Shown piece by piece: positions 8,071 through 56,400 of a DNA stretch of 64,000 bases. The notes below the pieces were generated by a model that saw only the letters and a program-made list of their open reading frames with translations, made no database searches and was not told the DNA's origin. This DNA is from Trypanosoma brucei (Eukaryota): positions 1,504,001 to 1,568,000 of the forward strand of contig CP000066.1 of assembly GCA_000002445.1 (NCBI GenBank). The letters are read 5' to 3'. The number at the start of each line of letters is the position of its first letter. The stretch's first letter is position 1. The position numbers and the translations under genes were made by a program.

Positions 8071-8104
8071 ATGTAGAAGGGTGTTTAGAAAACATTTCAA
8101 GGAA

Positions 8105-31249: not shown

Positions 31250-33319
31250 ATGACATCCCGACCCTTGACGGGGTTGCGGGCGCCCTCATCTATGGGAGTG
31301 GCAGGTGGACTCGTCACAGCAGGTATGAGACCAACAACAACATCAGGTGGTGGCACAACGTTAGGACGCATTCAGGCAAAGATTCAAGACGGTAATTTCA
31401 CCGCCACGGTATACGGGTACATTCGAGATCATAAATATGACGAAGCAATTGAGGTGCTTCTCCTTCAATTGGACGAGTTCCCGCGTAGCCGCGCAGCCAT
31501 TTCCCTCATTGCCTACTGCTACTACCACGTTGGGGATTTTGCGGAGGCGGCACGCATGTATCAACAGCTAGTAAAGATATGCCCAAATGTGGAAGAATAC
31601 CGTGTTTATCTCTGCCAATCACTTTATAAAGCTGGAGCGTACGTGGAAGCAAGCAAGATGTGCACTATGATCGAGTCTGAGCAATATTCCATGCGGTTGA
31701 TGAAGTTGCAGGCCTCGATAGCGTACGAACAGGAGGAAATTCCACAAACAAAGTCATTCTTGGAAAAATGCCCGCCAGAGGACCCTGAAGTAATTATACT
31801 GCAGGGTTGTGTATTGTGCAATGAAGGCAGTTATGAGGAAGCGCTAGCAAAGTTTCAGGAGGCGCAGGCTGGTTTGGGTTTCAAGCCAGATCTTGCGTAC
31901 AACATTGCTTTAACGTACTACCGGATGCAACAGTACGGACCATCACTCAAGCACATCGCGGAAATTATTGAGCGCGGGATTCAAGAACACCCCGAACTTA
32001 ATATTGGGAGCAACACGGAAGGTAATGAGGCGAGATCTGTGGGTAACACTCAGTTATTGAAGGAAACCGCTCTCGTAGAAGCGTTTAACCTAAAAACAGC
32101 TATAGAGTTCATGATGAAGAACATGTCGGCAGCGAAAGAGGCCCTTACTGACATGCCACCCCGTCTGCAAGAGGAACTCGATCCCGTTACGCTGCACAAC
32201 ACTGCTCTGGTAAACATGCCAGAAGATCCATCTATTGGTTTCAGCAAGCTGAACTTCCTACTTCAAAATCCACCCTTTCCGCCGGAAACGTTCCAAAACC
32301 TATTATTGTTTTACTGTAAGTACCAGTACTTTGATCTTGCGGCTGATGTTCTTGCGGAGAACCCCCACCTCAGCTGGAAGTACCTCTCGCAGCAGAACCA
32401 GTCGCTATATGACTTTCTTGACGGATTAATCACAGCGCAGACATCACCTGCTGAGGCCTACCGAAAGTTTGACATATTAGCCCAGCACCACATTGACCAA
32501 CTTCGTAGGCTCACGAAGAAACTTCAGGATGCAAAACAGAACCAAGACAAGAACAGCGTCCGCACTGCATTGCGAAACTATGACGAGGCGTTGGAGGATT
32601 ACATTCCTGTGCTAATGGCTCAGGCAAATATTTACTGGGAAATTGAAAACTATCCGATGGTCGAAAAGCTGTTCCGTCAGTCTGCAGAATTTTGTTCTGA
32701 GCACGAGATTTGGAAGCTGAACGTAGCCCATGTATTTTTCATGCAGGAAACTAAATTTCGTGAAGCAATTCGTTACTATGAACCTGTAGTGGAGGCAAAT
32801 GAGGAAAATTTACTTAACTGCAGTGCCATTGTGTTGGCCAACTTGTGCGTAGCGTACATTATGACGGCACTCAATGATAAGGCGGAGGAAATTATGAGGC
32901 GCATCGAGCGTGAGGAAGAGAAACTTCTTTATGTGGATCCAGAAAAGCAACCACTTCATTTGTGCATTGTGAACCTCGTTATCGGTACGCTGTACTGCTC
33001 CAAAGGGAATTTTGAGTTTGGTATTTCTCGCATCGTTAAATCTTTAGAGCCATACCATCGGAAAATCATGACCGACACGTGGTTTTATGCCAAACGTTGC
33101 TTCCTTGCCCTTGCTATGCATCTTGCCAAACATATGGTTGTTCTAAAAGACGGAACGTTTGATGAGATTCTTAATTTCTTTGATCAGGCGGATCGCTACG
33201 GGGAGAAGATACCTGCCTTCGTACATCCCGATCCTAGCAAGCAGGAAAACACATCCAAGAACACCGTGCGCTGGGAGGCGCGGCAACTTAAGCATTTATA
33301 TTTGCATATGCGTGAGTAA
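31250..33319 (+). CDS. IFT70: Intraflagellar transport protein IFT70 (TTC30/DYF-1/fleer TPR protein)
   Basis: ATG at 31250. Extended colinear similarity to TTC30A/B as recalled, including IAEIIERGIQEHPELNIGSNTEG...SVGNTQLLKETALVEAFNLKTAIEF, DMPPRLQEELDPVTLHN, NPPFPPETFQNLLLFYCKYQYFDLAADVLAEN, IPVLMAQANIYWEIENYPMVEKLFRQS and CIVNLVIGTLYCSKGNFEFGISRIVKSLEPY. Confidence 0.85.
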   Translation: MTSRPLTGLRAPSSMGVAGGLVTAGMRPTTTSGGGTTLGRIQAKIQDGNFTATVYGYIRDHKYDEAIEVLLLQLDEFPRSRAAISLIAYCYYHVGDFAEAARMYQQLVKICPNVEEYRVYLCQSLYKAGAYVEASKMCTMIESEQYSMRLMKLQASIAYEQEEIPQTKSFLEKCPPEDPEVIILQGCVLCNEGSYEEALAKFQEAQAGLGFKPDLAYNIALTYYRMQQYGPSLKHIAEIIERGIQEHPELNIGSNTEGNEARSVGNTQLLKETALVEAFNLKTAIEFMMKNMSAAKEALTDMPPRLQEELDPVTLHNTALVNMPEDPSIGFSKLNFLLQNPPFPPETFQNLLLFYCKYQYFDLAADVLAENPHLSWKYLSQQNQSLYDFLDGLITAQTSPAEAYRKFDILAQHHIDQLRRLTKKLQDAKQNQDKNSVRTALRNYDEALEDYIPVLMAQANIYWEIENYPMVEKLFRQSAEFCSEHEIWKLNVAHVFFMQETKFREAIRYYEPVVEANEENLLNCSAIVLANLCVAYIMTALNDKAEEIMRRIEREEEKLLYVDPEKQPLHLCIVNLVIGTLYCSKGNFEFGISRIVKSLEPYHRKIMTDTWFYAKRCFLALAMHLAKHMVVLKDGTFDEILNFFDQADRYGEKIPAFVHPDPSKQENTSKNTVRWEARQLKHLYLHMRE

Positions 33320-35265: not shown

Positions 35266-35598
35266 AAGACGTTGCGAAGTCTCACCACATGGGGGTACAT
35301 ATTCGCACGCACATCCGTACACTTTTCGTGGTAACTCCTCTGCTTGTTTACTCATAATTCAAGCGTCGGGTTACCTTGCGATGCTCCTGTTTCTACGTTA
35401 ATGAGGATGTCGCCTTGAGTAAAATACCATGGGTTTAACTAATACAAACTTTCCTTGTAAATCATCTTTTTTTTTTCTTTGCTCTTTGTAGGTAGTAGTG
35501 GTCTGGGTTTGGTGGGCAAGTACTCATTGGGAATCGTGGAGGGTAACAGAGAGAGAGAGAGTGCTGGATAAAAAAGAAAAGAAAAAGTGTGTGTAGAA

Positions 35599-38700: not shown

Positions 38701-38912
38701 TCTGCGTATTCCTCCGTGGGAGTATTTTTCATACCTCTGAAGGCCCACCAATAAGGCACCATTGTTACTGACTCCCTACATTAAGGGGTGTTGTAGTGCA
38801 TTTGAAGGGAGAAGGCGGGTGCTGCGTGGAGAAAGCGAGAGGCAAAGGAAAAGGAAACAGAAAAAGCTGTGTTGGTCAGAGGAAGCGGGAGGAAGGTAAA
38901 TATCATCAGGTC

Positions 38913-41648: not shown

Positions 41649-41814
41649 ACGAGGGGTTGGAGTGTGTTGCGATATAAATACCAGCAGTAAAAAGGAGTGG
41701 GAAGAATAGGAAAGCAAAAACAAAAAAAATGGAAGGGTAAGAAAGTTTCAAAAAGGGGCGATGTAACCACACGTGCGCGTACAAACAAGCAGTGGGAGTC
41801 CCAGGGGAAAGAGA

Positions 41815-41820
<6 letters not shown>

Positions 41821-41845
<25 letters not shown>
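41821..41845. repeat. (GT)12 microsatellite
   Basis: Direct reading, 3' of RPN1. Confidence 0.9.
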
Positions 41846-43571
41846 GAAAAGCTATTACCTGACGTAAAGGAGAAAGCGATGTGTGGAAAAGGGATGAAGA
41901 AGGGAATGCTGATAAGAAGAAAAGGGTAAGATACCGGAGGGAGGAAAGATAAAGGAAAGAAGTTCAGGCATCCATACAAGTTAGTTGAGGCCACACGCTA
42001 TTGGAGGTCTATGTTGAGGGCTTGTGCCAACCACTTTTCCTTCCCATGTTCATTCATTCACGTGATAAATTCTTCTGCTGTGTTTGTTTCTCTTTGCCTT
42101 CGAACGAGTGTGTTTGTCTCTTTCTGCGTCTGGCGGTTTAGAATAAGTCCCTCCTGCGAACTGTGCTGCGTTTCCATGATTATTTGTTTTATTTCCTCAA
42201 GTGAGGGTGCTATTACGGGAAATTGATGAGACTCACCGCAACAGATTTTCACTTTTCCCCTTTTTTTCTCTTTCGGAAATGTCGGCATACATGAAATTTT
42301 CTTTGTTGGTTTCGCACCGGAACTGTAAAGGAGGGACTTTGTAAAACGTGTTTACCACACAATCATTACATGGGACAAATCGATTCTAGCGACTCTATTT
42401 AATGTATTTGCGCGAGTCTCTGACGCACAGGGATGCATTCCGTGACTAATATGCCACTGAATCTCTTCACATCCATCTCCGTTTCAGTGCCACCCTTCCT
42501 TTTGCAGCTTGTGTGTCGGCTGAGGCAACAAACTGAAGCTGTTGGACATAATGCCAATTAACTGATTGGACAATTTTTGTTTGTCAGACGTTGACGGGGG
42601 ACACAAAATGGTACACATACACACACACACACACATACACACGCAGAAGATTTGCTACTGTGCTCTTACGATCATTCCATTAGTTTCAAACTAAAGGAAA
42701 AAAACCAGTCTTTGTGGGAACGGCGGAATTCGCTGGTAACATTGTCGTTGGCACCCACTTGGCGAAATAGCCGGTCGATATCAGCTTTACCGAAATCTCA
42801 GGGAACTATCAGTACGCCTTCACTTTCCTATGGCACCAAAACTCACAAAATTGCTGATGTTCAAACACTGAAGAATGAAAGATGACCTGTACTTCTTTGG
42901 GGTGGGCACTTCTGCTGAAGGAGTAGTCGGTATGCTGTCGACACTTTTTTTTTTTTAAGCACCAAAGGGGGAAAGAGTAAGTGCTGCATGCCTGGTAGTT
43001 TACAATTATATCTTGAGCAAAGGAATTACCTTTTCGATCACAAACTTTAAAAAGTTCCGGCGGTGCTGCATCTGAGAGTAATTTTTTTTTTTATCACTAG
43101 AAAAGCAGCCAGTAGCGCTTAGAAAGTTCAGAAGAGAGCGCACAAGATATCACTTCACATTTTACCATTCCACGCACTAAACTGGGTATTTTTGTAACTT
43201 TTTTTTGTATTTACAGCGTGTTTAAGGCCATGAGGGCGCAATATGTAACAAGCCTTTTGAGCACTATGCTTTAAGTGTGTGCATGACGAGCTAATTTAAC
43301 ATATGACTGCTTTCGTTCTTTCCCTTGTACCCATAGGAGGAGGATTCCGACTTAATAAGTTTTCTGTAGTTACCAGATAATCATAAAAACGTGTCAACAC
43401 AAAATACTACCAAAGAGGGAGGGGGAAAAACAATAAAATACAAGGGGAAAATTTTGTCGATAATTGTGAAAGAAAAGATAAAACGGAAGCAGTGCGGGTA
43501 GTTAAGTCATATCTGGTAGTTTAATCTGTTCGGCTCACAGAGTAAACAAATCACCGAGTTGCTCAAAAAAT

Positions 43572-46500
43572 ATGGAAGAGGACAAAAAACATTGGAGTTA
43601 CGACGCGGAAAACGAGGGTGTGTTACGCGACACCCCCTCTCCACTTCAGATACAAGAATCCATTGGGAACGATGGGAATACACAAACAGAAGGTAATGAG
43701 CACGGTGATTCTACAACAGAAGAAAATATCAGCAACAGCGAAGTAAAATGTGAAATTGAAATTGTGGAAAAGGTTCATCCGGATGCCGAAGAGGAAGAGG
43801 CACGTCTCAGAGCTGAAGAGGAGGCACGTCTGAGAGCTGAAGAGGAGGCACGTCTGAGAGCTGAAGAGGAGGCACGTCTCAGAGCTGAAGAGGAATCACG
43901 TCTCAGAGCTGAAGAGGAGGCACGTCTCAGAGCTGAAGAGGAGGCACGTCTCAGAGCTGAAGAGGAGGCACGTCTGAGAGCTGAAGAGGAGGCACGTCTC
44001 AGAGCTGAAGAGGAATCACGTCTCAGAGCTGAAGAGGAGGCACGTCTCAGAGCTGAAGAGGAGGCACGTCTCAGAGCTGAAGAGGAGGCACGTCTCAGAG
44101 CTGAAGAGGAGGCACGTCTGAGAGCTGAAGAGGAGGCACGTCTCAGAGCTGAAGAGGAGGCACGTCTCAGAGCTGAAGAGGAGGCACGTCTCAGAGCTGA
44201 AGAGGAATCACGTCTCAGAGCTGAAGAGGAGGCACGTCTCAGAGCTGAAGAGGAGGCACGTCTCAGAGCTGAAGAGGAATCACGTCTCAGAGCTGAAGAG
44301 GAGGCACGTCTGAGAGCTGAAGAGGAGGCACGTCTCAGAGCTGAAGAGGAGGCACGTCTCAGAGCTGAAGAGGAGGCACGTCTGAGAGCTGAAGAGGAGG
44401 CACGTCTCAGAGCTGAAGAGGAGGCACGTCTCAGAGCTGAAGAGGAGGCACGTCTCAGAGCTGAAGAGGAGGCACGTCTCAGAGCTGAAGAGGAATCACG
44501 TCTCAGAGCTGAAGAGGAGGCACGTCTCAGAGCTGAAGAGGAGGCACGTCTCAGAGCTGAAGAGGAGGCACGTCTCAGAGCTGAAGAGGAATCACGTCTC
44601 AGAGCTGAAGAGGAGGCACGTCTCAGAGCTGAAGAGGAGGCACGTCTCAGAGCTGAAGAGGAATCACGTCTCAGAGCTGAAGAGGAGGCACGTCTCAGAG
44701 CTGAAGAGGAGGCACGTCTCAGAGCTGAAGAGGAGGCACGTCTCAGAGCTGAAGAGGAGGCACGTCTCAGAGCTGAAGAGGAGGCACGTCTCAGAGCTGA
44801 AGAGGAGGCACGTCTCAGAGCTGAAGAGGAGGCACGTCTCAGAGCTGAAGAGGAGGCACGTCTCAGAGCTGAGGAAGAGGCACGTCTGAGAGCTGAAGAG
44901 GAGGCACGTCTGAGAGCTGAAGAGGAGGCACGTCTCAGAGCTGAAGAGGAAGAGGCACGTCTCAGAGCTGAAGAGGAGGCACATCTTGAAAGTAAAGACT
45001 CTTCCGTTAAACGACCCATCCAATGTGACGATGGTTGTAGGTGGATTAGGGCTGATGAGGTTGCAGCAGTTTCAGCAATTGAGGGGCCCACAGGTTCAGC
45101 TTTAGATGATTGTCTTTCGTATTCGTTTGTTGGTATAAGTTCCTCTGAAGTTTCTGTGGGAGGGGAAAACTGCGATGCATTTATGGGTAAAGGTGATACA
45201 TCATCGGCAAGTGATAACGCGCGTAGTGATCACTTGACCGGCCGTTCTTGTTCCAAAACAGTGCCCTTGAAACATCCGTTAACAAATAACATTCCATGCC
45301 ATGATGAGTTTGAAATTTGCATGGAGGAAGAGCTGCTGCGTATGGGTTACGCTGAATCGGATATCCACGTCCGCTACCTGGAACTTCACCACCACGAGAC
45401 GTCACGGGAGCCTGGGCGTTGTCTGTATCCTCCTCTTGAGAGTGGAGGTGGTGTCTTGTCCCCACAAAACATTCAAATTGGTTTCTTCAGAAGCAAGCAG
45501 GTCGTCATTGCTTCCCACTCCTTGGTATCCAGGAGAGTGGCTAAGCGCGAGAGGAGCGCTAAAGTTGGTGAGAGGGCTTTAAGCGACTCGCGGTTCTTCT
45601 TCGAGAATGAACTAATGTCCGACACTACGGTTACAACGGAAGACAGAAATTTACCTCACAATAGCCCTGATGAGCAACTTGTTGAGGAACAGAAACTAAG
45701 GACTAACCAAAATAACCTCGTGGCAGCTGCGCTCTCCCGTTTTACCCTTGGTGACCCTGTTCAAGTGTGGGAGCAGGCATGCGGGTTCTCCCTTGATCCT
45801 GTCCCCGGTATTAGGGATGGTGTGAGACAACTTCCTACACATGTGACTGGGGAGACGTCTTCGTATATATGGGCACACGAAATCGCAACTAACAAGCCAG
45901 TTCCCGCAATGAAAGCCTTTGACTCCGGCGTTCTGCTTCGTGTTGAATGTACGTCTATCGCGAGTCGACTCCTCGAGGTACACAAGGATGCAATAGATCC
46001 TGTCATTGTATCGGTGGCATTCTACAGTATGGGCTCCAGTACCAAGTTAAAGGTGTCTGAGACATTTTTTTTTGATTCGTGTGTCGACATTTTCTACCCT
46101 CACAAGGAGCGCAGTGAACTCAACAGAGAAAGTCGAGCGATGGCTTTTATTCCACAAGAGTTCTTCGCCTCCCTTTACCTCGTTATGCGTGTGTACCGAC
46201 CCTGCTGTGAGGATCAGGACAGTTATGTAGACCTCTACAGCAGACCCGACCGCTACAAAAGCCAGCAGGTTACTCTTATGAAGCAGAACACACAGCTGCT
46301 TGCCATGAAATCTGATATTTTTGAGGAAATTGGCTGGTACATGATGCCTTGTGTAAAGAATAAGAGTGTGGTTGAAACGTTGGAGACGACCAAATTGTAC
46401 CAAAGAGGGGCACCCGATGCACAGGTATTTCAATTGGTAGAAAATGAGCGTGCGCAGAAAGCATTAGCCACACTCCCTTTCTTCGCTTCTTTCAGCTTGA

Positions 46501-49500
46501 AGCATTGTAAGGGATGCGAAGTTGAGTTTCCGTCCCAGCATGATGAACCACTTCCTGAGGAAAATGAGACGATTATCAAGGTGTGCACCCGAAGCGATAC
46601 CGAAGTACAGGAGGAAACTTGCCGATTTGTTCCTTGCATCATACCCATACTAAACTCAGGGTTTTTCAACTCTTATCATAATGTGTACTACTTTCGTCTT
46701 GACAGGGTGAAACTGGTAAGCACTGGGATATTACGAACTGTTCCCTCGACGCACCGCACATTTGTCATGGAGATCAATGTAAGAGACAACGACACATCAT
46801 TGTCTGGTGAAAACCTACCGCTTTTGTACGGGAACAGGCTATCAGCAAAGACACTGCAGACGTCCGTGTGGGCCTCAGCTGTTCACAATTCTCTTGACTT
46901 TTCGTTGAGCGATGAGTTTAAGGTGCAACTGCCACTCCATCTTGGCGAAAAGTTCCATATATTTATAACCCTCTATGCCTGCTGTAAGAAAATGGACAAT
47001 TCTTCAGAAGAAATGCAGAAAATGCACAAGGTTGGTTATGCAGCATTTCCTATTATCCATAACGGTGTGGTGCGGGTGAAGGACGAGTGGACCATCAAGT
47101 TCATCGCAGCGGATCAAGTACTTGAAGGGTCGGAAAAATCATATCTAGATAAATTCTCCGAGGCAGCTGACGAGGCGCACCTTAATGGTGGTATCCCTGT
47201 CTTGTCTGTCAGTACGCAGACACGTACCTCTGTTCATGCCTCTAATGCCATCATTGCCAGTTTACTGAAGGAGATGCCGGCTTCGTTGGAGAGTATTTTG
47301 CGTAATGATAACTTGTTCCGCGTTTCCGGGAATTTGAAAGATATCTATAGGTCCGATGATGACGCAATTCACAGCAGTTTGATCCGTAAAATGCGGAAAC
47401 TTCCTCTGGCGGAGATTCTAGCTTTTTATCCACTTCTTTCGTTCTTCATACTGTCGCTGATCAGTTCACCGTCGAAAAGTGTCAGTTTACCCTGTCGAAC
47501 CGCAGCTTTGGAGGTACTTCTTGACATTACAATCAAAACGCAGCATTATGATCTTACAACCCGTTCGCGTCAAAAACAGCACTCAGCACGGGGTGTTTCC
47601 AAAACCTCCGTAACCCGCTTTCTCTATCACCATCTTACTAATGATTTACTGTATAATGGAGAGAAGCAACGCCTCTACGCCGGATTTGCAGAGACATGGT
47701 TACATCTACTGGTGGCGTGTAGACCGCATTCAGAGAACACTGACCAAGGTGCTGGGGATAAAACTGCGAAGGACGACCGTGAACAAGACAAGAGGAACAT
47801 TCGCAAGCGGATGGCAGATCTGTCGTGGTTTTTATTCGGTGTGATATTGCGTTCTATTTACATCTGGGCACTGGAGAACCCCAGCATTCCTCGAGCGAAG
47901 TTGTTGGACCCCGGTTTCTACTCGATTATTGGTGACCTCTGCGTAGAAGCTCTTGACGTTCTTGACGGTTTTGGAATCGATGATGTCCTTGTTCGGCGCA
48001 CGGCACTCTTTACGAGGAATCTGTTTAATTTCTGTGATCGCGGAAAGGTGCTTAACATCACCCAACGAATCGTGGAGTTCTTCGAAAAACGGCAAGATAT
48101 GGAGGGATTGGGCACGTTTATGAGTATCATTCTTGACGACGTGGATGTCGTTACGTTGATGATTCCTTCTTCGTCATACACCCAACCCGTCTTTCTTACT
48201 CGTATATTAGTACATGCCTTCTCGCTTTTACTCTCCAGTCCAAGCCAGGTCGTGCGTTCCTCATCTTCGGACGTGCTCTACAAATTCATTTGTCGTGTGA
48301 CAAATGGTGTGCGTTACCCCGCAACCTGTTTGCGCTGGATGGCCTCGCAACTCCTTGCTTTGGTACGAGAGGTTTCACTTCGGTGGAAAGCGTATGTGCA
48401 AATGTGTGAGAAGACAGAGTCTGTTGCTACAATTGAGGACAAGCGTCAACTCTGTGTTTCGATACTTTGGATAATTTATTATGCACCACCAGGTCGTCTA
48501 CGAAATTGGTTGAAGGGAGAGCGCGACAGTGACGTAATTTCTGGTCTTTTGAGCCTTGTAAGTGATGCGCAACACCTCTTTCGCTACACCGCGGGCGTTG
48601 ACAAGGCAAATCCACATGGTGTTAAGGAACCAACCCAATGGATGCGGGAGTGGGATGCGCGCATGTCAACGTTTGTTGCTGCAATTGGTGCATATGTGTG
48701 CAGCGCAGTCCTCCATGCTGTTCCTGATGCACTAAAGAGTCTCCGAACTGAGAAAGTGGATCCAATTGTGTTCCCGTTCTTTCATTTGTTAGAAGGTGTA
48801 TTGCATCTTGGAAATTCAACAGCCGCCCTTCAGATTGGTTCCTGTGCCCTACTGGAAGTTGCTCATTCTATCTTTCCGGAGATTTTGTGTTCCACTTCGC
48901 GGATGTGCAGCGGTATGGCAGTACTTGTGATGAGTCTGATGAGTAGTTGTTCGGTGCATGTGCGTTCAATGGCGGAGGAGGTGCTGTTCCTGATGTGCTA
49001 CGCCTGTTACACGGGGTGCAGGTCAGTCGCAAAAATCAAGGCGCCGATCTTCAGCGCAACGGTTTACGTGGCGGAGTCTAAAAAGCGTGACCTTCGTTTA
49101 GCTGGAGGTTTTCTCGAACTCCATCTCTCGAACTTAGTGCGAAAAGCTCAACAGTCGGGAGACAACTTCCCCCCGTTTTCCCAGTCGTATGTAAAGCGCT
49201 GTGAAGCTGACTCAGAAACCCCCGGTAATGAGGTTACCGCAGGGCGCCGGCATTGTGGAGAGTCACCATTTACTTCTGTCGAGCGGATGAGCCCGATACC
49301 ATCTTGCCTTATCAGCAACGGTGTGAATGGAATCGCATCACTTGTAGGAAACCGTAGGACAAGTGCTATTGTTGGAAGCGAACAGGGCAGCAACAACTGT
49401 AATGAACCACCCTCATTCGCAGAGGAGCTGGCTTCAGTGAGGGAAATATCCATGATGTTGTTCGGTAGCGTTCGGCAACTGATGCAGACCGAATCTCTTC

Positions 49501-50963
49501 GGCTGAAGGAGGCGAAGGCGCTCCAACACTTCAAACTTGCCGTGCAACTGTTGAGGGTGGGTGCAGTGCATGAATGCCTCAGATGGTTTCAGCGCCTTCA
49601 TGAACTGCACAAAGCGAACAACAACATGGGGGAGGCGGGCATTGTTTTGTTGTTTGTAGCGGCTCTTTGTTTTCGTCTAACAGAAGCCTTCTACCAAGTA
49701 AGAGGAAAGGAATCACGAGGAGCACGCATACCATTTATTGTGTTCTCCCACGTGTTCTGGCACGATTACGCGCGGCTTCTTCCTGAAGTGGACACACTTC
49801 TTACTGGTGATGTTTTGTATACGGTGGTGTCGGAGTTGAGGGTTCTCCCTAGCGACCCCTGCTTGTCACTTTCAGGACATGTAGAAGTGTTGCGAGGGGC
49901 TGCGTCGCTGTTAGATAAGGATCATTATAACATCTTCTCTGTAGGTGTGTTAAGCATTGTTGAGCGTTACTACCGTTTGTTGAATGACTTCAAAGCTGCC
50001 GCCTCAATCCACTCAGCGATGGCGGACGGTTGTTATGCGGTTTCTAAAGAAGATCGACAAAAGCGGGAGAATCACTGTTACTTTTTGCTTTGGGCTCGCA
50101 TGAACCGGGCAGAAGTTGAGTTACATGAGATGGATGGTAACGAATCCATGCAAAACGGATACAGCCTGCCTCTAAAATGCGTGTTTAAAATGCCAGCTAA
50201 AACTAAGTTGGAGCAGTTTTTGGAATGTAGCAAAGACTTCGTTAGGCCCCTTCTCAAAGACGCCACTCCTCTTGTTGTTACGGAAATGGCGGAGGAACAA
50301 AAAGATATGGGAGCTTTAGAAGCTTCGAAATTACCACCGGAAAATTGCTGTTTATTAAGCGTGTGTGAAGTCAACCCATGCTTTTCCAGTGGTAGGCGGA
50401 AGCTCACCGACAGTTACGATAGAAATGCTTCCCTCAATAAATTTGAGTACATGACGTACACATACGACAACAGTCGGGAGTATGGCGACGCCAAGCCGGA
50501 TAGTGCTTTACTAAGGAACCGTTTGGTTGTGTACAAATACCACCTTGAGCGCTCATTCCCTTCAACAACGAATGTCATAGACGTTGCCACTACACATATT
50601 GACCAGCTTGATACCGCGGCCACCGTTGCACACGTCCTGGGCAAAAGCATTGAAATGTTGCAGGCGCCGGTGGATAACGACGAACTTGTCGGCACACTGC
50701 TACGAGCGCTTACGCCCGGTGGGTTCGCGCGGCCAGGCGCTTATATAAAAGAAGTCATCACTACAATGAGTACGAATAGTGCTGTAATGACTCAGGTGCG
50801 ATCCCTCAGCAAACTACTGAAGACGAAGTTGACACTTTGCGAAAAGCATGACGCTCCACTAAATAGCACAGAGAATTACGCACTTGTTTTAAAGGCTGTG
50901 ATGGATATAGAGTGTACGCTTATTACTTTGGATGACAAGGTAGGGGTAGCCTGCAGTCAATAG
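43572..50963 (+). CDS. Giant (2463 aa) protein: ~48 tandem EEEARLRA repeats at the N-terminus, then a large body with C2/DHR-1-like and DHR-2-like segments (putative DOCK-family GEF-like protein)
   Basis: ATG at 43572. Uninterrupted 7.4-kb ORF. The repeat array is directly visible. The DOCK-like assignment is inference from motifs: a beta-rich segment VLLRVECTSIASRLLEVHKD...LYLVMRVYRPC (C2-like); near the C-terminus NNNMGEAGIVLLFVAALCFRLTEAF and HCYFLLWARMN...LKCVFKMPAKTKLEQFLE resemble DHR-2 core helices and the FRVGFYG...YKEPKxTKLxEI region of DOCK proteins. Confidence 0.6.
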   Translation: MEEDKKHWSYDAENEGVLRDTPSPLQIQESIGNDGNTQTEGNEHGDSTTEENISNSEVKCEIEIVEKVHPDAEEEEARLRAEEEARLRAEEEARLRAEEEARLRAEEESRLRAEEEARLRAEEEARLRAEEEARLRAEEEARLRAEEESRLRAEEEARLRAEEEARLRAEEEARLRAEEEARLRAEEEARLRAEEEARLRAEEEARLRAEEESRLRAEEEARLRAEEEARLRAEEESRLRAEEEARLRAEEEARLRAEEEARLRAEEEARLRAEEEARLRAEEEARLRAEEEARLRAEEEARLRAEEESRLRAEEEARLRAEEEARLRAEEEARLRAEEESRLRAEEEARLRAEEEARLRAEEESRLRAEEEARLRAEEEARLRAEEEARLRAEEEARLRAEEEARLRAEEEARLRAEEEARLRAEEEARLRAEEEARLRAEEEARLRAEEEARLRAEEEEARLRAEEEAHLESKDSSVKRPIQCDDGCRWIRADEVAAVSAIEGPTGSALDDCLSYSFVGISSSEVSVGGENCDAFMGKGDTSSASDNARSDHLTGRSCSKTVPLKHPLTNNIPCHDEFEICMEEELLRMGYAESDIHVRYLELHHHETSREPGRCLYPPLESGGGVLSPQNIQIGFFRSKQVVIASHSLVSRRVAKRERSAKVGERALSDSRFFFENELMSDTTVTTEDRNLPHNSPDEQLVEEQKLRTNQNNLVAAALSRFTLGDPVQVWEQACGFSLDPVPGIRDGVRQLPTHVTGETSSYIWAHEIATNKPVPAMKAFDSGVLLRVECTSIASRLLEVHKDAIDPVIVSVAFYSMGSSTKLKVSETFFFDSCVDIFYPHKERSELNRESRAMAFIPQEFFASLYLVMRVYRPCCEDQDSYVDLYSRPDRYKSQQVTLMKQNTQLLAMKSDIFEEIGWYMMPCVKNKSVVETLETTKLYQRGAPDAQVFQLVENERAQKALATLPFFASFSLKHCKGCEVEFPSQHDEPLPEENETIIKVCTRSDTEVQEETCRFVPCIIPILNSGFFNSYHNVYYFRLDRVKLVSTGILRTVPSTHRTFVMEINVRDNDTSLSGENLPLLYGNRLSAKTLQTSVWASAVHNSLDFSLSDEFKVQLPLHLGEKFHIFITLYACCKKMDNSSEEMQKMHKVGYAAFPIIHNGVVRVKDEWTIKFIAADQVLEGSEKSYLDKFSEAADEAHLNGGIPVLSVSTQTRTSVHASNAIIASLLKEMPASLESILRNDNLFRVSGNLKDIYRSDDDAIHSSLIRKMRKLPLAEILAFYPLLSFFILSLISSPSKSVSLPCRTAALEVLLDITIKTQHYDLTTRSRQKQHSARGVSKTSVTRFLYHHLTNDLLYNGEKQRLYAGFAETWLHLLVACRPHSENTDQGAGDKTAKDDREQDKRNIRKRMADLSWFLFGVILRSIYIWALENPSIPRAKLLDPGFYSIIGDLCVEALDVLDGFGIDDVLVRRTALFTRNLFNFCDRGKVLNITQRIVEFFEKRQDMEGLGTFMSIILDDVDVVTLMIPSSSYTQPVFLTRILVHAFSLLLSSPSQVVRSSSSDVLYKFICRVTNGVRYPATCLRWMASQLLALVREVSLRWKAYVQMCEKTESVATIEDKRQLCVSILWIIYYAPPGRLRNWLKGERDSDVISGLLSLVSDAQHLFRYTAGVDKANPHGVKEPTQWMREWDARMSTFVAAIGAYVCSAVLHAVPDALKSLRTEKVDPIVFPFFHLLEGVLHLGNSTAALQIGSCALLEVAHSIFPEILCSTSRMCSGMAVLVMSLMSSCSVHVRSMAEEVLFLMCYACYTGCRSVAKIKAPIFSATVYVAESKKRDLRLAGGFLELHLSNLVRKAQQSGDNFPPFSQSYVKRCEADSETPGNEVTAGRRHCGESPFTSVERMSPIPSCLISNGVNGIASLVGNRRTSAIVGSEQGSNNCNEPPSFAEELASVREISMMLFGSVRQLMQTESLRLKEAKALQHFKLAVQLLRVGAVHECLRWFQRLHELHKANNNMGEAGIVLLFVAALCFRLTEAFYQVRGKESRGARIPFIVFSHVFWHDYARLLPEVDTLLTGDVLYTVVSELRVLPSDPCLSLSGHVEVLRGAASLLDKDHYNIFSVGVLSIVERYYRLLNDFKAAASIHSAMADGCYAVSKEDRQKRENHCYFLLWARMNRAEVELHEMDGNESMQNGYSLPLKCVFKMPAKTKLEQFLECSKDFVRPLLKDATPLVVTEMAEEQKDMGALEASKLPPENCCLLSVCEVNPCFSSGRRKLTDSYDRNASLNKFEYMTYTYDNSREYGDAKPDSALLRNRLVVYKYHLERSFPSTTNVIDVATTHIDQLDTAATVAHVLGKSIEMLQAPVDNDELVGTLLRALTPGGFARPGAYIKEVITTMSTNSAVMTQVRSLSKLLKTKLTLCEKHDAPLNSTENYALVLKAVMDIECTLITLDDKVGVACSQ
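43808..44990. repeat. Tandem array of ~48 copies of a 24-bp unit (gaagaggaggcacgtctcagagct) encoding EEEARLRA, with sparse variants (gca to tca giving EEESRLRA; ctc/ctg synonymous)
   Basis: Read directly from the sequence between 43808 and about 44990. Unit identity is above 95%. The array is in-frame coding on + and yields a spurious 438-aa antisense ORF (SSALRRAS)n on the - strand. Confidence 0.95.
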
Positions 50964-52100
50964 CGATAAACCAATGTGGTGCGTGAGATATTAAAAGGTA
51001 TTTTAAGGTTAATATATTTTGGGGGTTGGATGGCGTCACCATTATTAATATTTTAATCATAGAAAATACTCTCGCGTCATATTGATGTAGTGGTTGGTGA
51101 TTTTTTTTGCTTTTGTTATTTTCGTGTGCTTTAAGATCCAGCGTTGCGGTAGTGTTCACCCTCCCCCCGATGGGGTCAAATATTTGGCCTTCAAAACAAA
51201 TGTTGAATTAACCTTTTGATGATGATATCATTTTCATTTTTTTCTCCATAACAATGAATGTTTCGTGTCTGATAAATTGATGGTGAGTGCGATGGGCGTG
51301 TTATCGCTACCATTCCTTTTGCTTTAATCACCGCCTCTCCTGTTGGATTTTCTCAATGTGTGAACGTGCTTCCATCACTCAGCACTGCTGCAGACACAGA
51401 CGAATACAATACTACAAATGAATACAGATATATATGTTGTTTCCCTCTTTTTGTTCCTTTTTTGTTTCAATTTTACCGTCGCTCAGCGGCTGTTTCTTCG
51501 ATCGTCCCTTGAATGTGATTCTCTTCATAACGCTGGGTTGATTGAGTGCTCTGCACTTGTATCTAATCGTGCTTAGTGGTGGAACAGTTTTAAATTATCA
51601 TCATGACTTGAAGGAGCTGGGAAGTCGGAATTGATTCCGGTATTTTTTAAAAAAAAATAGAAAGAGAAATTATATACAAGTGCCCCTCTCTTTTTTGTGT
51701 TTGTTTCTGTGCGTTTATTTGCATTATTAACAGGGAGAAGTAACCATAGGTAACGTGCTAAGCGGTTTAGGAGAGCTGTGAAGGGGCGTGTTTAATTCTC
51801 TTTTTTACGTGTGATCCCTTTTGTCGCTATCACTATTTCGTCAGTTCTATTATTATTGTTATTATCACTTGCTACTGTGTCATGTCTCCGTTGTTCTTCG
51901 TAATGTAGTAAAGGTTGAGCATTTGATAGAGTTTTTTTTTCTTATTTTATTGGTTAAGGGTGCTTGTATCACCAAAGGGGGAGCACGCGGAAGTGCGGTA
52001 GGGCGAATAGACGCGAAAAGAATTGCAAAAAAAAAAAGTAGTGAATACTCTGAACACTACATTACAGGGGCTATTAAGGCAATTTTTTTCTAGTGAAGAG

Positions 52101-53705
52101 ATGCCCATTCCGTGTAATTTCAAGGATCAAATAACAGGTGAAGTTCATATTCCCTCAACTTCCCGCGCAAATGTTACGTACAAACAATGTGAATGTCAGA
52201 CGGGTGTGCTTAAGATGCAAGATATGGAAACACAAACAGCGATTAGCGCTCTTCAGGCAGTCAACCGAAGCGACAAACAAGTTGGCCACGAGAAACCTCA
52301 GATCCAGGCAAATATCGATGGGCTGCAATATGTTTATGCTGGAGTAAATTACAGCGAGGAGGCTCTGGCTGATTTCCTGGAGGCGGCGAGGGAAGACGTC
52401 CTTGCTATATTATACCGCAATGTAAAAAACAGTGCGTTTGACAACTACGAGCCGAATTGGACGAAAAAGAGCACTGAACTCTCTGCTGTTGCAACTTTCC
52501 GGGCGTCGTATGCCGAGGAAAGAGATCTTCACGCCTTATCCGTGAGTTTTAACTCCAGCGGAACACTCTTAGCCGTTGCATACGGCCAAGTGGATACCGC
52601 AGGGTGGTGTAATGATACAGGCATGGTTGGTATATGGAACTTGTCACGAAATGATGTAAACGTTAATGAACCGCATCACATGATGGAAACTGATTCCTTC
52701 GTCACATGTGTTGCATTTCATCCATCACAGGCAACAGTGTTGGCAGTGGGACTGTACAGTGGTGAGGTGGTACTTTATAAAAATGTGACGGATGCGACAC
52801 CGATAGAGATGACAGCAGACGGATCTTCAACATCGCACAGAGAGCCCGTGACATTCCTGCAGTGGACTGAAAACTTACAGGAGACGCGTGATTCCCATCG
52901 GTACACGCTTTGTTCCGCGGGCCAGGATGGTCGTATCCTCTTTTGGACTATGGGCAATAAAATGGCGCAACCAACAGCCGCATTTATCATTAAAACCAGG
53001 AAAGGAGCAACGGTTGGTGTGCAGTCCGCTTGTTTCTCCCGTCCCGGGGGCTCCGCCGGTCGCATCACACCATCGAGCGACAGTGTTCTCGTCATTGGTC
53101 TTGAAAATGGTGATGTTGGCCGAGCCCGTCCTGGCGTCCTTGCTGCCCTTCCAACTCGAGCTGGAGAGTCGGAGGTTTCTCTTGAACTTGATTGGTTGTC
53201 CTCTCACAGGGGTCCTGTGCAGTGCGTTGATACCTCGCCTTTCTTTCACAATCTCTGCCTCACTTGTTCTTCTGATGGCAGTGCTCGGCTGTACAACATG
53301 CTAGAAACGGCAGCAGTTGCCACATTAGAGCCGTCTGCGGAGTCGAAACATTTCCTTTATGCTGCGCGGTTTAGTCCTTTTAGACCCAGTGTTATTGCTG
53401 TGGTTTCGCGCAGCTCATTCCTGCATATATATGACTTGCAGAAATCGCAACTTAAGCCTGTAGTAACGTTGGAAGCTGGGACAGATGGCGCTGCACTGAT
53501 GTGTGTTACTTTTAATCATGCTTCACCGGATTGGATTTGTACGGGGGACGTCAGTGGCTCCGTCCGCCTCTGGAAGCTGCCGTCGTCCCTCATGCAAACC
53601 ACCGACTTGGAGCGGGCTGCTGTGCGGGATAGCCGTGGCCGTGGGGGGAATGCGGAAGACAGTGAAAAGAACGCCGTCATATCTCTGTTTGGTTTCTCTC
53701 TCTGA
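52101..53705 (+). CDS. WD40 dynein intermediate chain, most likely the IFT-dynein (dynein-2) intermediate chain (WDR34/DIC5-like)
   Basis: ORF-track start 52023 is TTG; first ATG at 52101. Dynein IC signature LSVSFNSSGTLLAVAYGQVD...GMVGIWNL, followed by WD repeats (VTCVAFHPSQATVLAVGLYSGEVVLY; TLCSAGQDGRILFWT; DWICTGDVSGSVRLWK). The 534-aa length is close to WDR34. Confidence 0.6.
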   Translation: MPIPCNFKDQITGEVHIPSTSRANVTYKQCECQTGVLKMQDMETQTAISALQAVNRSDKQVGHEKPQIQANIDGLQYVYAGVNYSEEALADFLEAAREDVLAILYRNVKNSAFDNYEPNWTKKSTELSAVATFRASYAEERDLHALSVSFNSSGTLLAVAYGQVDTAGWCNDTGMVGIWNLSRNDVNVNEPHHMMETDSFVTCVAFHPSQATVLAVGLYSGEVVLYKNVTDATPIEMTADGSSTSHREPVTFLQWTENLQETRDSHRYTLCSAGQDGRILFWTMGNKMAQPTAAFIIKTRKGATVGVQSACFSRPGGSAGRITPSSDSVLVIGLENGDVGRARPGVLAALPTRAGESEVSLELDWLSSHRGPVQCVDTSPFFHNLCLTCSSDGSARLYNMLETAAVATLEPSAESKHFLYAARFSPFRPSVIAVVSRSSFLHIYDLQKSQLKPVVTLEAGTDGAALMCVTFNHASPDWICTGDVSGSVRLWKLPSSLMQTTDLERAAVRDSRGRGGNAEDSEKNAVISLFGFSL

Positions 53706-54019
53706 GATGGTGTCATTTATTCTCAAATATTTTTTCCGTTGCGGATGCTTCAAATACGAGGTGTTAAAGGAATATAGTGACGTATGTGCAAAGTGCGTGT
53801 GAAAGTGGTGAGAAGATTCTGTTTACGTGTGGTACATTGTGTCTGACCACTTTTTTTTTCTTTGCTTTGTCTTTTGTGGTGTTTGTCCTCACTGTGTTGA
53901 ACCGACCTCACGTTATATTTTCTTCGACGAATTGAAGAGCCGCAAAGGCGAGAGTTACCTTTTGATAACATTCAGGTGTACTCTCCTTTCATTTATGCGT
54001 TTGTATGCTTCCAGTCTTG

Positions 54020-54067
54020 CACACACACACACACACACACACACTCTCTCTCTCTCTCTCTCTCTAC
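54020..54067. repeat. Compound (CA)12(CT)13 microsatellite
   Basis: gcacacacacacacacacacacacactctctctctctctctctctctact. Confidence 0.9.
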
Positions 54068-54310
54068 TTCCTGCTTTCGTGAGAATTTTTAACGACTGTT
54101 GGTACCAGACTCCGTGTGTACGTGCATCAATGAAATGCCAAGTAATTACGATCATGCACTTTTTACCTTTTTTGGCATAAAAAAATGTGCACAGTTCGTC
54201 TTGTTTTCCCTTCTTTGCTCCGGTTGATATCCATTTGTTTTGCTTAGCAAAGAGCAATTCCTCATCGTAGAGGCCGTAGTTGTTTGTCAAAACTAAGAGA
54301 GGAAGGTCTC

Positions 54311-54862
54311 ATGGTAAACTTGCGTCTTCAGGTGGCCGTAGTTGGCGCACCAACGGTCGGGAAAACTGCATTTGTGCAAATGCTTCACAGCAACGGCACA
54401 ACATTTCCTAAGAATTACCTCATGACGTTGGGTTGCGACTTTATTGTAAAGGAGGTTCCTGTTGATGATGATAATACGGTGGAAATGATAATATTTGATG
54501 TGTCAGGCCAGCGCGAGTATGAACCTATGGTTTCTTCGTACCTACAAAACACTGCAGTGTTCATAGTCATGTACGATGTTTCCAATAAAGTTACATTTGA
54601 GGCCTGCGCACGTTGGGTGAATCAGGTGAGGACGAACAGTAAAGAGAGTGTTGGAATTCTCATTGCAAATAAATCCGACCTCAGTGATAAGGCTGAAGTG
54701 ACGGACCGGCAGGGGAAAGATCTCGCAAATGCAAATAAGATGAAGTTCTACAAAATATCCACTTTGCGAGGTGTTGGCATCACTGAGCCCATTGATGAGA
54801 TTGCGCGGCATTACGTTGACGCATATCAAAAACGTATTGAACAACTCACCCAAATGAGGTAA
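54311..54862 (+). CDS. IFT27: Rab-like small GTPase IFT27 (RABL4)
   Basis: ORF-track start 54284 is TTG; first ATG at 54311. P-loop GAPTVGKT; switch-region similarity to IFT27 (YLMTLGCDFIVKEVPVDDDNTVEMIIFDVSGQREYEPMV versus human [36 protein letters not shown]); NKSD G4 box. No C-terminal prenylation Cys, as in IFT27. Confidence 0.75.
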   Translation: MVNLRLQVAVVGAPTVGKTAFVQMLHSNGTTFPKNYLMTLGCDFIVKEVPVDDDNTVEMIIFDVSGQREYEPMVSSYLQNTAVFIVMYDVSNKVTFEACARWVNQVRTNSKESVGILIANKSDLSDKAEVTDRQGKDLANANKMKFYKISTLRGVGITEPIDEIARHYVDAYQKRIEQLTQMR

Positions 54863-55619
54863 TGTTTGCTGTTGCGTTTTCAAACGTGTGCGTGTGCACG
54901 TGAGAATGAAAAGGGAGGATAAGCCACAGATGCATTCACGTGTGAGTGATTTGGTTCTTTTGTTTTGACATTGCCTCATATTTGCCTCCCTTTTTTTCTT
55001 TCTCTCTCTCTTGATATGTTCGGTATTTTTGCTTCCACTGGGCGTACTGTTTTTGGTATCTTTTGTTTCTCCGTGATTCGGTGCTCAAATGATGGTGAAG
55101 GGGATATCACTTTAGGATGCGGCTCAATACAAAAGGGAAACAAAAAAAAGAACAAATGAATTAATGAATGAATGAGAAAGGCAAAAGTCCGAGATAGAAA
55201 AAAAAAGGGCTGAGAGTGGGGATGAGAGGTCACACGGAATGGTGAGAATCGAAATAAGACGACACTTCGGTGTGTATTTGTGTGTTGTTTACTGTTGGAG
55301 TTGTTTTTTTTCTTTTTCCCTTTTTCGTTGGTTCTTTCCCTTTCTCTCACTCTACCGCCACAACAATGGCACCACTTTCCCTCCTACAGTTATTTCATTT
55401 CATATTTTCCTCCATTTATTCCCCCCCCCTCGTTGGTCCCTAAGCAACTCTGTTTATTTCCATTACCTGCACTGCAGTCGCTGTAGCAGTTGCTTTTCTC
55501 CTACTCTTTCTCTCTCTCTTTTTTTTTTTCGATATGTTCCATTTCAATTTGATTCTTCCCATTAGGGGGTTTTAGTTTAACCTTCCCGTGATATTGGATG
55601 TTTAGTACATTGTATTTGT

Positions 55620-55952
55620 ATGATTGACGATGTAAGAATTTGTCATCTCGTACTGCAGGATGTGAAGGAGCGTCTTCCGCTTTACGAGTCGCGACTTGAG
55701 GCAGTTAATAACTCGCATGTAGTGATAAGTTGTTGGAACGAAAGCGTAAAGGCATTTGTGCCGGTTCCTGTTGCAGAAGATGTGGAATTTACATCAGATG
55801 TGCTTCATGAAGTTGTCAGTTTGGTGGATGGATTGAGGCAGTTGGGTTGTACGGATTTTTTTGTCGTTTTTGTGGACAGCGGAGGCACACTTTCATTTTA
55901 CCACGTGGACACGCTTCGGTTACTCCAATCAGGGCGCAGCGGTTCCTCCTGA
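55620..55952 (+). CDS. Candidate small protein (110 aa), possibly Roadblock/LC7-like fold
   Basis: ATG-initiated ORF on the coding strand in an otherwise 1.5-kb gap between IFT27 and the syntaxin gene, with a pyrimidine tract upstream (55280-55560). Alternating hydrophobic pattern: VVISCWNESVKAFVP...DFFVVFVDSGGTLSF weakly resembles the LC7/MglB core. Not low-complexity. Confidence 0.3.
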   Translation: MIDDVRICHLVLQDVKERLPLYESRLEAVNNSHVVISCWNESVKAFVPVPVAEDVEFTSDVLHEVVSLVDGLRQLGCTDFFVVFVDSGGTLSFYHVDTLRLLQSGRSGSS

Positions 55953-56400
55953 TGGTAAAGGTGAGATGAAGTTGTCAGGAAAATTTGAAAATTTACGGGT
56001 TTAAAGGCGTATGTGAGGGGGTTTTCGAATGTCAAATTCATTACTTCCGTTGTTTTCACATGAAAGGGGAGGAGAAAATAATATGGCTATCACCATCAAA
56101 AAAAAAAGGTACGTGGAAGTTGCTTCGTGCAAGGAAAAGGGAAGGTTCAGTTGTGTTGCTTTTTTTTTCCATGCGCTGACACCTTTATATAATATTATCC
56201 ATGGGAACCTTCCAGTGCCAACTAAAATTTGGTGGTGAATTTAATGCTCTCTGGTGATTTGCTGTACTTTCATGCCTCCACGCACACATACACACACACA
56301 CATTTTTACGTGGCTATTTGATTGTTAACTTTTTTTCTCTGAATCACTTATTCAAAGGGAGGAAAGGGTAGGTGTGAACGTTTCATTTTTGCAAGTATAC

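What the first reader, a model, noticed from the sequence alone, without database searches (positions are those of the whole stretch)
52101..55952. Contiguous flagellar/IFT neighbourhood: dynein-2 intermediate chain, IFT27, then an unannotated Roadblock-like small ORF
A dynein intermediate chain (AVAYG...GxVxIWNL signature, WDR34-like length), the Rab-like IFT27 and a 110-aa ORF with LC7/Roadblock-like hydrophobic periodicity sit consecutively on the same strand. IFT70 lies about 20 kb upstream (31250-33319) in the same transcription unit. Kinetoplastid polycistrons are not operons, but clustering of three or four IFT-machinery genes is unusual. If the small ORF is expressed, a dynein light-chain role (LC7/roadblock is a known IFT-dynein subunit) is a concrete hypothesis.
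Basis: partly seen in the sequence, partly recalled or inferred. Interest (0 to 1): 0.6.

Follow-up and report, generated by a model that had tools for sequence, protein, structure and literature searches.

The report
Known IFT genes; neighbour is Sen15-like
Two already-published trypanosome flagellar-transport genes (DIC5 and IFT27) do sit side by side here, but the small gene after them is not a dynein light chain: it looks like the small non-catalytic subunit (Sen15) of the enzyme that cuts introns out of tRNA, so the finding is largely ordinary.

Summary
The window is Trypanosoma brucei TREU927 chromosome 3. All three ORFs are real, lie on the + strand and are already annotated.

- **52101-53705:** DIC5/WDR34 (Tb927.3.5540), the dynein-2 intermediate chain. 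It scores E 6e-64 against human WDR34, against 2.5e-18 for the best other dynein intermediate chain, and it is functionally characterised in the literature.
- **54311-54862:** IFT27 (Tb927.3.5550), also published.
- **55620-55952:** the 110-aa ORF is not unannotated. It is GenBank AAZ10587.1, and UniRef calls it a "Sen15 domain-containing protein".

Orthologues occupy the same position after IFT27 in T. cruzi, Leishmania, Angomonas and Bodo saltans. They share an invariant C-terminal F-x-D-x-x-G-x-x-S-x-Y pattern and have no catalytic His or Lys.

My best reading is a non-catalytic partner of TbSen34 in splicing the single intron-containing tRNA-Tyr. The IFT "cluster" reduces to two adjacent genes, plus IFT70 five genes upstream, inside an old syntenic block that also carries housekeeping genes. 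Interest is low.

The parts
52101..53705 (+). DIC5 / WDR34 (DYNC2I2) orthologue, dynein-2 intermediate chain, 534 aa (Tb927.3.5540)
   Evidence: ORF. Exact match to AAZ10585.1. PDB phmmer gives human WDR34 6rlb_D at E 6.3e-64, against 2.5e-18 for the next best dynein intermediate chain and 5.5e-7 for WDR60. Published function in PMC4148251.
54311..54862 (+). IFT27, Rab-like GTPase of IFT-B, 183 aa (Tb927.3.5550)
   Evidence: ORF. Pfam Ras E 1.2e-35. Exact match to AAZ10586.1, UniRef 'Intraflagellar transport protein 27 homolog'. Chlamydomonas IFT27 chains are among the top PDB hits. PMC4003483 gives 552 nt and 183 aa.
55490..55575 (+). Polypyrimidine tract (55490-55530) followed by AG dinucleotides at 55564-55565 and 55574-55575. 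Candidate trans-splice acceptor region for the small gene.
   Evidence: Read directly from the sequence. That this layout is typical of trypanosomatid splice acceptors rests on general knowledge. No RNA data were available here.
55620..55952 (+). 110-aa Sen15-like protein, the predicted non-catalytic subunit of the tRNA-splicing endonuclease (GenBank AAZ10587.1; locus tag Tb927.3.5560 inferred from gene order)
55869..55901 (+). Codons for F84-V-D86-S-G-G89-T-L-S92-F-Y94, the most conserved stretch of the family. Inferred to be the acidic L10 loop plus the last beta strand (beta9) that pairs with the catalytic subunit.
   Evidence: Invariant columns F84, D86, G89, S92 and Y94 across 8 kinetoplastid sequences. 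hhalign places the stretch on human TSEN15 I143-V-E145-S-D-S-T-I-V-Y152-Y153. The role of beta9 and L10 is taken from PMC10485636. The mapping is an inference from a weak alignment.
31250..33319 (+). IFT70 (TPR protein, 689 aa), five genes upstream of DIC5 on the same strand
   Evidence: PDB phmmer E 8.1e-253 to 4uzy_A and 8.6e-253 to 8bd7_C 'IFT70'. The intervening genes are Rpb3-like, IQCH-like ATP-grasp, RPN1 and a DOCK protein.

Best explanation
The region holds three unrelated-by-function, conventionally expressed genes of one T. brucei polycistron.

Two are well-known IFT genes: DIC5/WDR34, the intermediate chain of the IFT dynein, and IFT27, the Rab-like GTPase of IFT-B.

The third, the 110-aa ORF, is a divergent Sen15-type protein. 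It consists only of the C-terminal subdomain of the tRNA-splicing-endonuclease fold and has no catalytic residues.

Inferred mechanism: its last beta strand (S92-F-Y94) pairs with the last strand of the catalytic subunit TbSen34. The acidic loop just before it (D86) inserts into a basic pocket of a neighbouring subunit. Together these hold the endonuclease together so that it can excise the intron of tRNA-Tyr, the only intron-containing tRNA of T. brucei.

The side-by-side position of DIC5 and IFT27 is inherited gene order. It is part of a block RPN1-DOCK-DIC5-IFT27-Sen15-like that is already present in Bodo saltans. It is not an operon-like functional cluster.

Shown here: gene identities, the fold, conservation and synteny. 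Inferred: binding to TbSen34 and a role in tRNA-Tyr splicing.
For: Identity of the two IFT genes:
- DIC5.
- IFT27.

The small ORF is a real, conserved gene:
- Orthologues of 94-127 aa exist in T. melophagium, T. vivax, T. theileri and Angomonas.
- Orthologues sit directly after IFT27 in Angomonas, Leishmania lindenbergi, Bodo saltans and T. cruzi.

Sen15 assignment:
- UniRef name.
- Pfam Sen15 is the only family hit recurrently (6 of 8 members, E 0.0024-0.1). Each hit covers the same stretch of the Pfam profile, roughly positions 39-93.
- The AF2 model (pLDDT 86.2, pTM 0.78) has two helices and five strands, as described for the endonuclease C subdomain (PMC10485636).
- Foldseek: all 13 hits at E<=1e-3 are chains of tRNA-splicing-endonuclease entries. 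They are led by the P. aerophilum enzyme (2zyz_C, the structural subunit PAE0789) and by chains of human TSEN structures.
- The same ranking is obtained with the 33%-identical Angomonas orthologue.

Non-catalytic nature:
- No invariant His or Lys in the family.
- The protein is acidic (pI 4.7), like TSEN15.

Biological context:
- A single intron-containing tRNA-Tyr, and TbSen34 as the known catalytic subunit (PMC4931112).
- In Leishmania only one catalytic and one structural subunit are recognisable (PMC10485636).
Against: - Sequence evidence for Sen15 is weak. No member reaches Pfam's 22-bit cut-off (best 18.7 bits), and the T. brucei protein itself gives no Pfam hit at all.
- Profile searches of PDB sequences do not find TSEN15.
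- hhalign against human TSEN15 gives only score 17.2 and P 0.05.
- Both models rest on a shallow alignment of six sequences.
- No interaction, localisation or expression data were available here, and no paper in the library mentions the gene.
Confidence: 0.8

Rival explanations
1. One reading: the 110-aa ORF is an LC7/Roadblock-type dynein light chain that binds DIC5 in the IFT dynein.
For: Its size (110 aa) is right for a light chain, and it lies two genes downstream of DIC5. No tool result supports it beyond that.
Against: - No Robl_LC7, LAMTOR or MglB Pfam hit at E<=10 in any of 8 family members. The positive control, human DYNLRB1, scores 2.9e-26.
- hhalign of the family against DYNLRB1 aligns only 5 columns, score 8.9.
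- The model topology is alpha-beta-beta-beta-alpha-beta-beta. The Roadblock order is alpha-beta-beta-alpha-beta-beta-beta (from my own knowledge).
- Canonical Roadblock proteins are so conserved that human DYNLRB1 finds 'Dynein light chain roadblock' chains of many other entries at E 1e-20 to 1e-31. A cryptic, unrecognisable one is therefore not needed.
Confidence: 0.02
2. The ORF has the endonuclease-like (PD-(D/E)XK-related) fold but works outside tRNA splicing. It could be a degenerate nuclease-fold adaptor or a Holliday-junction-resolvase-like protein with a different partner.
Against: - Identity to the Hjc hits is 5-7%, apart from one weaker Hjc hit at 12-16%. For the TSEN15 and archaeal structural subunits it is mostly 15-21% (12-17% for the Angomonas model).
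- Foldseek, which also uses sequence, puts only tRNA-endonuclease chains at E<=1e-3.
- The strands that would carry a D...(D/E)xK site have no invariant acidic or lysine residues. The invariant residues are V34, V35 and F46.
- The conserved block is instead the C-terminal loop and strand, as in Sen15.
- Pfam Sen15 is the only recurrent family hit.
Confidence: 0.12
3. The DIC5-IFT27(-IFT70) grouping is a selected functional cluster, for example to keep stoichiometric or cell-cycle-timed expression of IFT genes within one polycistron, rather than inherited chance synteny.
For: - DIC5-IFT27 adjacency is conserved from T. brucei to the free-living Bodo saltans.
- A pair with a third IFT gene within five genes is expected by chance in only 0.25-1.7% of random genomes.
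Against: - The conserved block also contains RPN1, a DOCK protein and the Sen15-like gene, so the conservation is not specific to IFT genes.
- The genes between IFT70 and DIC5 are an RNA-polymerase subunit, an IQCH-like ATP-grasp protein, a proteasome subunit and a DOCK protein.
- An adjacent pair alone is expected in 9-26% of genomes, and the test is post hoc.
- Most other IFT and dynein-2 genes are elsewhere. DLI1, for example, is Tb927.11.16810.
Confidence: 0.08

Closest known systems
Human TSEN15 / yeast Sen15 (Pfam PF09631), smallest non-catalytic subunit of the eukaryotic tRNA-splicing endonuclease
   Same: - It consists only of the endonuclease C subdomain, with no N subdomain.
- It has no catalytic triad and is acidic.
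- The conserved C-terminal 'acidic loop + aromatic strand' (FVDSGGTLSFY) aligns to human IVESDSTIVYY.
   Different: - It is shorter (94-127 aa against 171 for human and 128 for yeast) and lacks the disordered N-terminal tail.
- Sequence similarity is below Pfam's family threshold.
- Sequence identity is only 12-21%.
- The partners are unknown. Kinetoplastids may lack the four-subunit architecture (PMC10485636).
Pyrobaculum aerophilum (alpha-beta)2 splicing endonuclease structural subunit PAE0789 (PDB 2zyz chains A/C)
   Same: - A protein of about 95 aa that likewise is only the C subdomain and serves as a non-catalytic beta subunit (PMC10485636).
   Different: It is archaeal and shares 15-21% identity. 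Common descent as opposed to parallel reduction cannot be decided here.
Roadblock/LC7 dynein light chains (Pfam PF03259)
   Same: Only the size (about 100 aa) and the alpha/beta class.
   Different: The order of secondary-structure elements differs. There is no profile match and no structural match.
Human WDR34/DYNC2I2 and Chlamydomonas FAP133 (for the 534-aa protein)
   Same: Full-length match at E 6e-64. RNAi gives a retrograde-IFT phenotype and the GFP fusion moves by IFT (PMC4148251).
   Different: Nothing notable. It is the recognised orthologue.

Membership tests
Roadblock/LC7 (PF03259) | Significant match to the Robl_LC7 (or related LAMTOR/MglB) sequence profile | tested here: not met
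   No hit at E<=10 for the T. brucei ORF or any of 7 orthologues. The control, human DYNLRB1, scores 2.9e-26. hhalign aligns 5 columns, score 8.9.
Roadblock/LC7 (PF03259) | Roadblock fold (alpha-beta-beta-alpha-beta-beta-beta sandwich) | tested here: not met
   [not shown]
Roadblock/LC7 (PF03259) | Binds the dynein intermediate chain as a dimer | not testable with these tools
   This needs co-purification or a complex prediction.
Sen15 / TSEN structural subunit (PF09631) | Match to the Pfam Sen15 profile at the curated threshold (22 bits) | tested here: inconclusive
   6 of 8 members hit Sen15 over the same stretch of the profile at E 0.0024-0.1 (13.4-18.7 bits). None reaches 22 bits, and the T. 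brucei protein itself gives no hit. UniRef nevertheless names it 'Sen15 domain-containing'.
Sen15 / TSEN structural subunit (PF09631) | Endonuclease C-subdomain fold (two helices around a five-stranded sheet) without an N subdomain | tested here: met
   [not shown]
Sen15 / TSEN structural subunit (PF09631) | Lacks the catalytic Tyr-His-Lys triad of the catalytic subunits | tested here: met
   No invariant His or Lys in the 6- or 8-sequence alignments. The invariant residues are R18, P20, V34, V35, F46, E53, L62, F84, D86, G88, G89, S92 and Y94.
Sen15 / TSEN structural subunit (PF09631) | Conserved acidic L10 loop and terminal beta9 strand used for subunit contacts | tested here: inconclusive
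   The best-conserved stretch is F84-x-D86-x-x-G89-x-x-S92-x-Y94, at the last loop and strand. A weak hhalign alignment places it on human E145...Y152-Y153. No complex model could be made.
Sen15 / TSEN structural subunit (PF09631) | Physical association with the catalytic subunit (TbSen34) and requirement for pre-tRNA-Tyr intron removal | not testable with these tools
   Only TbSen34 has been studied (PMC4931112). No paper mentions this gene.
Dynein-2 intermediate chain WDR34/DYNC2I2 (DIC5/FAP133) | Closer to WDR34 than to axonemal, cytoplasmic dynein-1 or WDR60 intermediate chains | tested here: met
   219 bits to WDR34, against at most 69 bits for other dynein intermediate chains, 48 bits for DYNC1I2 and 32 bits for WDR60. 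Sources name the orthologues 'WD repeat domain 34'.
Dynein-2 intermediate chain WDR34/DYNC2I2 (DIC5/FAP133) | Moves by IFT and is required for retrograde IFT | not tested
   Not tested here. Published for this very gene (PMC4148251).
IFT27 (RABL4) | Identity with the characterised T. brucei IFT27 | tested here: met
   Exact sequence match to AAZ10586.1, named IFT27 homolog. The cluster also holds synthetic IFT27 constructs. The 552 nt and 183 aa agree with PMC4003483.
PD-(D/E)XK nucleases (Hjc-like) | Conserved D...(D/E)-x-K active site on the central strands | tested here: not met
   No invariant acidic or Lys residues on strands 2-3. Hjc hits have mostly 5-7% identity.

The most novel reading that the evidence does not exclude
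Kinetoplastid tRNA-splicing endonuclease may be an archaeal-style (alpha-beta)2 enzyme. In this reading the roughly 100-aa, N-subdomain-less Sen15-like protein is the only structural subunit, paired with the single catalytic subunit TbSen34, and resembles the Pyrobaculum enzyme more than the four-subunit human/yeast TSEN. [quoted passage not shown] Nothing found here excludes it. I could not search the T. brucei proteome for Sen54- or Sen2-like proteins.
Probability: 0.3. Interest if true: 0.5.

Novelty: already known. Interest (0 to 1): 0.15.

Why it matters
- It removes a false lead. There is no hidden Roadblock light chain next to the IFT-dynein intermediate chain.
- DIC5 and IFT27 are textbook trypanosome IFT genes, and their adjacency is old synteny.
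- The only point of residual value is the small gene, named merely 'hypothetical protein' in GenBank. It is a good candidate for the missing structural partner of TbSen34. T. brucei has exactly one tRNA intron, whose removal is essential. That makes it a simple system for testing whether non-amorphean eukaryotes use a two-subunit-type endonuclease.

Tried and rejected
- **Word-indexed protein searches.** The first, with the ORF alone, found only the T. b. gambiense copy. The second, with the family alignment, found 6 proteins. The exhaustive HMMER search added four real orthologues plus three repeat-protein false positives.
- **Sequence-profile searches of the PDB** with the family alignments found only de novo designed proteins at E about 0.02-0.03, not TSEN15. 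I judged these to be chance matches to an idealised alpha/beta segment.
- **The afdb50 structure library** was not available. AlphaFold-database relatives, including other TSEN subunits of kinetoplastids, could therefore not be listed.
- **Two environmental kinetoplastid contigs** carrying DIC5 gave no information on what follows it. One ended just after DIC5, and for the other no DNA or downstream gene calls were available.
- **tRNA and RNA families.** There are no tRNA genes and no Rfam families in the window, so there is no link to tRNA-Tyr by position.
- **Nuclease-active reading** (Hjc/PD-(D/E)XK) was considered and rejected because no conserved catalytic residues are present.
- **A heterodimer prediction with TbSen34** could not be run. 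The tool folds single chains only, and TbSen34 is outside the window.
Full report
**Origin of the window and check of the observation**

Exact-sequence look-up places all three in Trypanosoma brucei brucei TREU927, on a 1.65-Mb contig, as consecutive GenBank proteins AAZ10585.1, AAZ10586.1 and AAZ10587.1.

The small ORF is therefore not unannotated. GenBank calls it 'hypothetical protein, conserved', and UniRef calls it 'tRNA-splicing endonuclease subunit Sen15 domain-containing protein'. Its locus tag, Tb927.3.5560, is my inference from gene order. No paper in the library contains that tag.

IFT70 at 31250-33319 is confirmed (E 8e-253 to Chlamydomonas IFT70 structures).

**The two IFT genes**

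The 534-aa WD40 protein matches human WDR34/DYNC2I2 over its whole length (E 6.3e-64, 219 bits). The best other dynein intermediate chain reaches 69 bits, cytoplasmic dynein-1 IC2 reaches 48 bits and WDR60 reaches 32 bits.

It is the published DIC5 (Tb927.3.5540). The GFP fusion moves by IFT, and RNAi gives short dilated flagella filled with IFT material (PMC4148251).

The 183-aa GTPase is the published IFT27 (Tb927.3.5550; 552 nt, 183 aa; PMC4003483; Pfam Ras 1.2e-35). Both genes are already known.

**The 110-aa ORF is a real, conserved gene**

An exhaustive HMMER search found orthologues of about 100 aa. An alignment-based search named their sources: T. melophagium, T. vivax, T. theileri, Angomonas deanei and one unnamed assembly.

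Fetching the DIC5 loci of other kinetoplastids shows a small gene directly after IFT27 in four lineages.

| Species | Small gene after IFT27 |
|---|---|
| Angomonas deanei | 94 aa |
| Leishmania lindenbergi | 113 aa, ending ...FVGFVDLAGTVSYY... |
| Bodo saltans | 200 aa as called, ending ...FVAFVDVVGNVSYY... |
| T. cruzi | called as 90 aa because of a one-base frame change in a T-run; LVFVDSGGSLTFY follows in the next frame |

Across eight sequences the invariant positions are L62, F84, D86, G89, S92 and Y94.

Upstream of the T. brucei ATG lies a long polypyrimidine tract (55490-55530) followed by AG dinucleotides. This is the usual layout of a trans-splice acceptor according to general knowledge. 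No RNA data were available.

**Test of the Roadblock hypothesis**

- None of the eight family members gives any Robl_LC7, LAMTOR or MglB hit at E<=10.
- hhalign of the family against DYNLRB1 aligns five columns.
- The AlphaFold model (pLDDT 86.2, pTM 0.78) has the order helix-strand-strand-strand-helix-strand-strand, which is not the Roadblock order.
- Canonical Roadblock proteins are highly conserved. DYNLRB1 finds 'Dynein light chain roadblock' chains of many other entries at E 1e-20 to 1e-31.

The hypothesis is refuted at the level of sequence and fold.

**What the ORF is**

- Foldseek against the PDB gives 13 hits at E<=1e-3. All are chains of tRNA-splicing-endonuclease entries, led by the P. 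aerophilum enzyme (8e-6) and by human TSEN structures, including the TSEN15 NMR structure 2gw6.
- Pfam Sen15 is the only family hit recurrently: 6 of 8 members, over the same stretch of the profile. It is always below the 22-bit cut-off, with a best score of 18.7 bits.
- hhalign against human TSEN15 is weak (score 17.2). It places FVDSGGTLSFY on IVESDSTIVYY, so that D86 aligns with E145 and F93/Y94 align with Y152/Y153.
- According to PMC10485636, endonuclease subunits are held together by the last beta strand (beta9) and the acidic L10 loop. The same review notes that TSEN15 lacks the N subdomain, as does the Pyrobaculum structural subunit.
- The kinetoplastid family has no invariant His or Lys, so it has no catalytic triad. 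It is acidic, with pI 4.7.

**Most likely mechanism**

The protein is most likely the non-catalytic partner of the catalytic subunit TbSen34. [quoted passage not shown] Its splicing is essential and cytoplasmic, and only TbSen34 has been studied (PMC4931112).

The review PMC10485636 states that in Leishmania only one catalytic and one structural subunit can be recognised, and it proposes an (alpha-beta)2 enzyme. This small protein is a natural candidate for that structural subunit.

The binding mode (beta9 pairing, L10 insertion) is inferred and not shown.

**The 'cluster'**

The genes of the window, in order, include TTL, RING, RIO1, Sec24, SNF2, IPP-2, IFT70, Rpb3-like, IQCH-like ATP-grasp, RPN1, DOCK, DIC5, IFT27, Sen15-like, syntaxin and TrpRS.

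The block RPN1-DOCK-DIC5-IFT27-Sen15-like is already present in Bodo saltans. The DIC5-IFT27 adjacency is therefore ancient, but it is conserved together with housekeeping neighbours.

I ran a simple simulation assuming 30-50 IFT-machinery genes among 8,000-9,000 genes, which are my own figures. An adjacent pair arises in 9-26% of random genomes, and a pair with a third member within five genes in 0.25-1.7%. The grouping is mildly unusual but post hoc.

[quoted passage not shown] The neighbours are thus functionally linked, yet nothing indicates that position matters.

**Verdict**

DIC5, IFT27 and IFT70 are right and already published. The Roadblock idea is wrong, and the ORF is a Sen15-like endonuclease subunit that UniRef has already labelled as such.

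Novelty is 'already known' and interest is low. The residual value is as a candidate for the unstudied structural subunit of the trypanosome tRNA-splicing endonuclease.

Noticed in passing
window 43797-44986 (within ORF 43572-50963): A 24-bp tandem repeat of 49.5 copies at 95% match encodes (EEEARLRA)n near the N-terminus of a 2463-aa DOCK-C2 protein. The syntenic DOCK genes of T. cruzi (1982 aa) and Bodo (2265 aa) are shorter. Whether they carry the repeat was not checked.
   Followed up: partly
L004 (T. cruzi GCA_003177095.1) 10683-10985: The Sen15-like gene is called as only 90 aa. A one-base frame change in a T-run near 10920-10935 moves the conserved LVFVDSGGSLTFYRTSTVRA* end into the next frame. 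This is probably a homopolymer error in that assembly and not a pseudogene.
   Followed up: partly
L003 (Bodo saltans) 1-13351 compared with window 38796-55952: The gene order RPN1 - DOCK - (small gene) - DIC5 - IFT27 - Sen15-like is conserved between the free-living bodonid and T. brucei. Downstream the order diverges, with a DEAD helicase in place of syntaxin and TrpRS.
   Followed up: partly
L001 (Angomonas deanei) 8628-8933: An extra 101-aa called gene with no Pfam hit lies between the Sen15-like gene and the syntaxin gene. No counterpart was looked for in the T. brucei interval 55953-56373.
   Followed up: no
window 35587-38178 and 1862-3415: Two further genes with possible cilium or tubulin links lie on the same strand. 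One is an IQCH-like ATP-grasp protein (E 1.1e-57) and the other a tubulin-tyrosine-ligase-family protein (E 5.9e-50). They were not counted as IFT machinery in the chance estimate.
   Followed up: no
window 52101-54862: The adjacent genes are functionally linked in the literature. IFT27 knock-down prevents the IFT dynein, of which DIC5 is a subunit, from entering the flagellum (PMC4003483). There is no evidence that the adjacency itself is functional.
   Followed up: partly
window 54040-54080 and 56280-56305: Short (CA)n/(TC)n dinucleotide runs lie in the intergenic regions flanking IFT27 and the Sen15-like gene. They were seen in ORF translations and in the sequence. This is ordinary trypanosome intergenic composition.
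   Followed up: no
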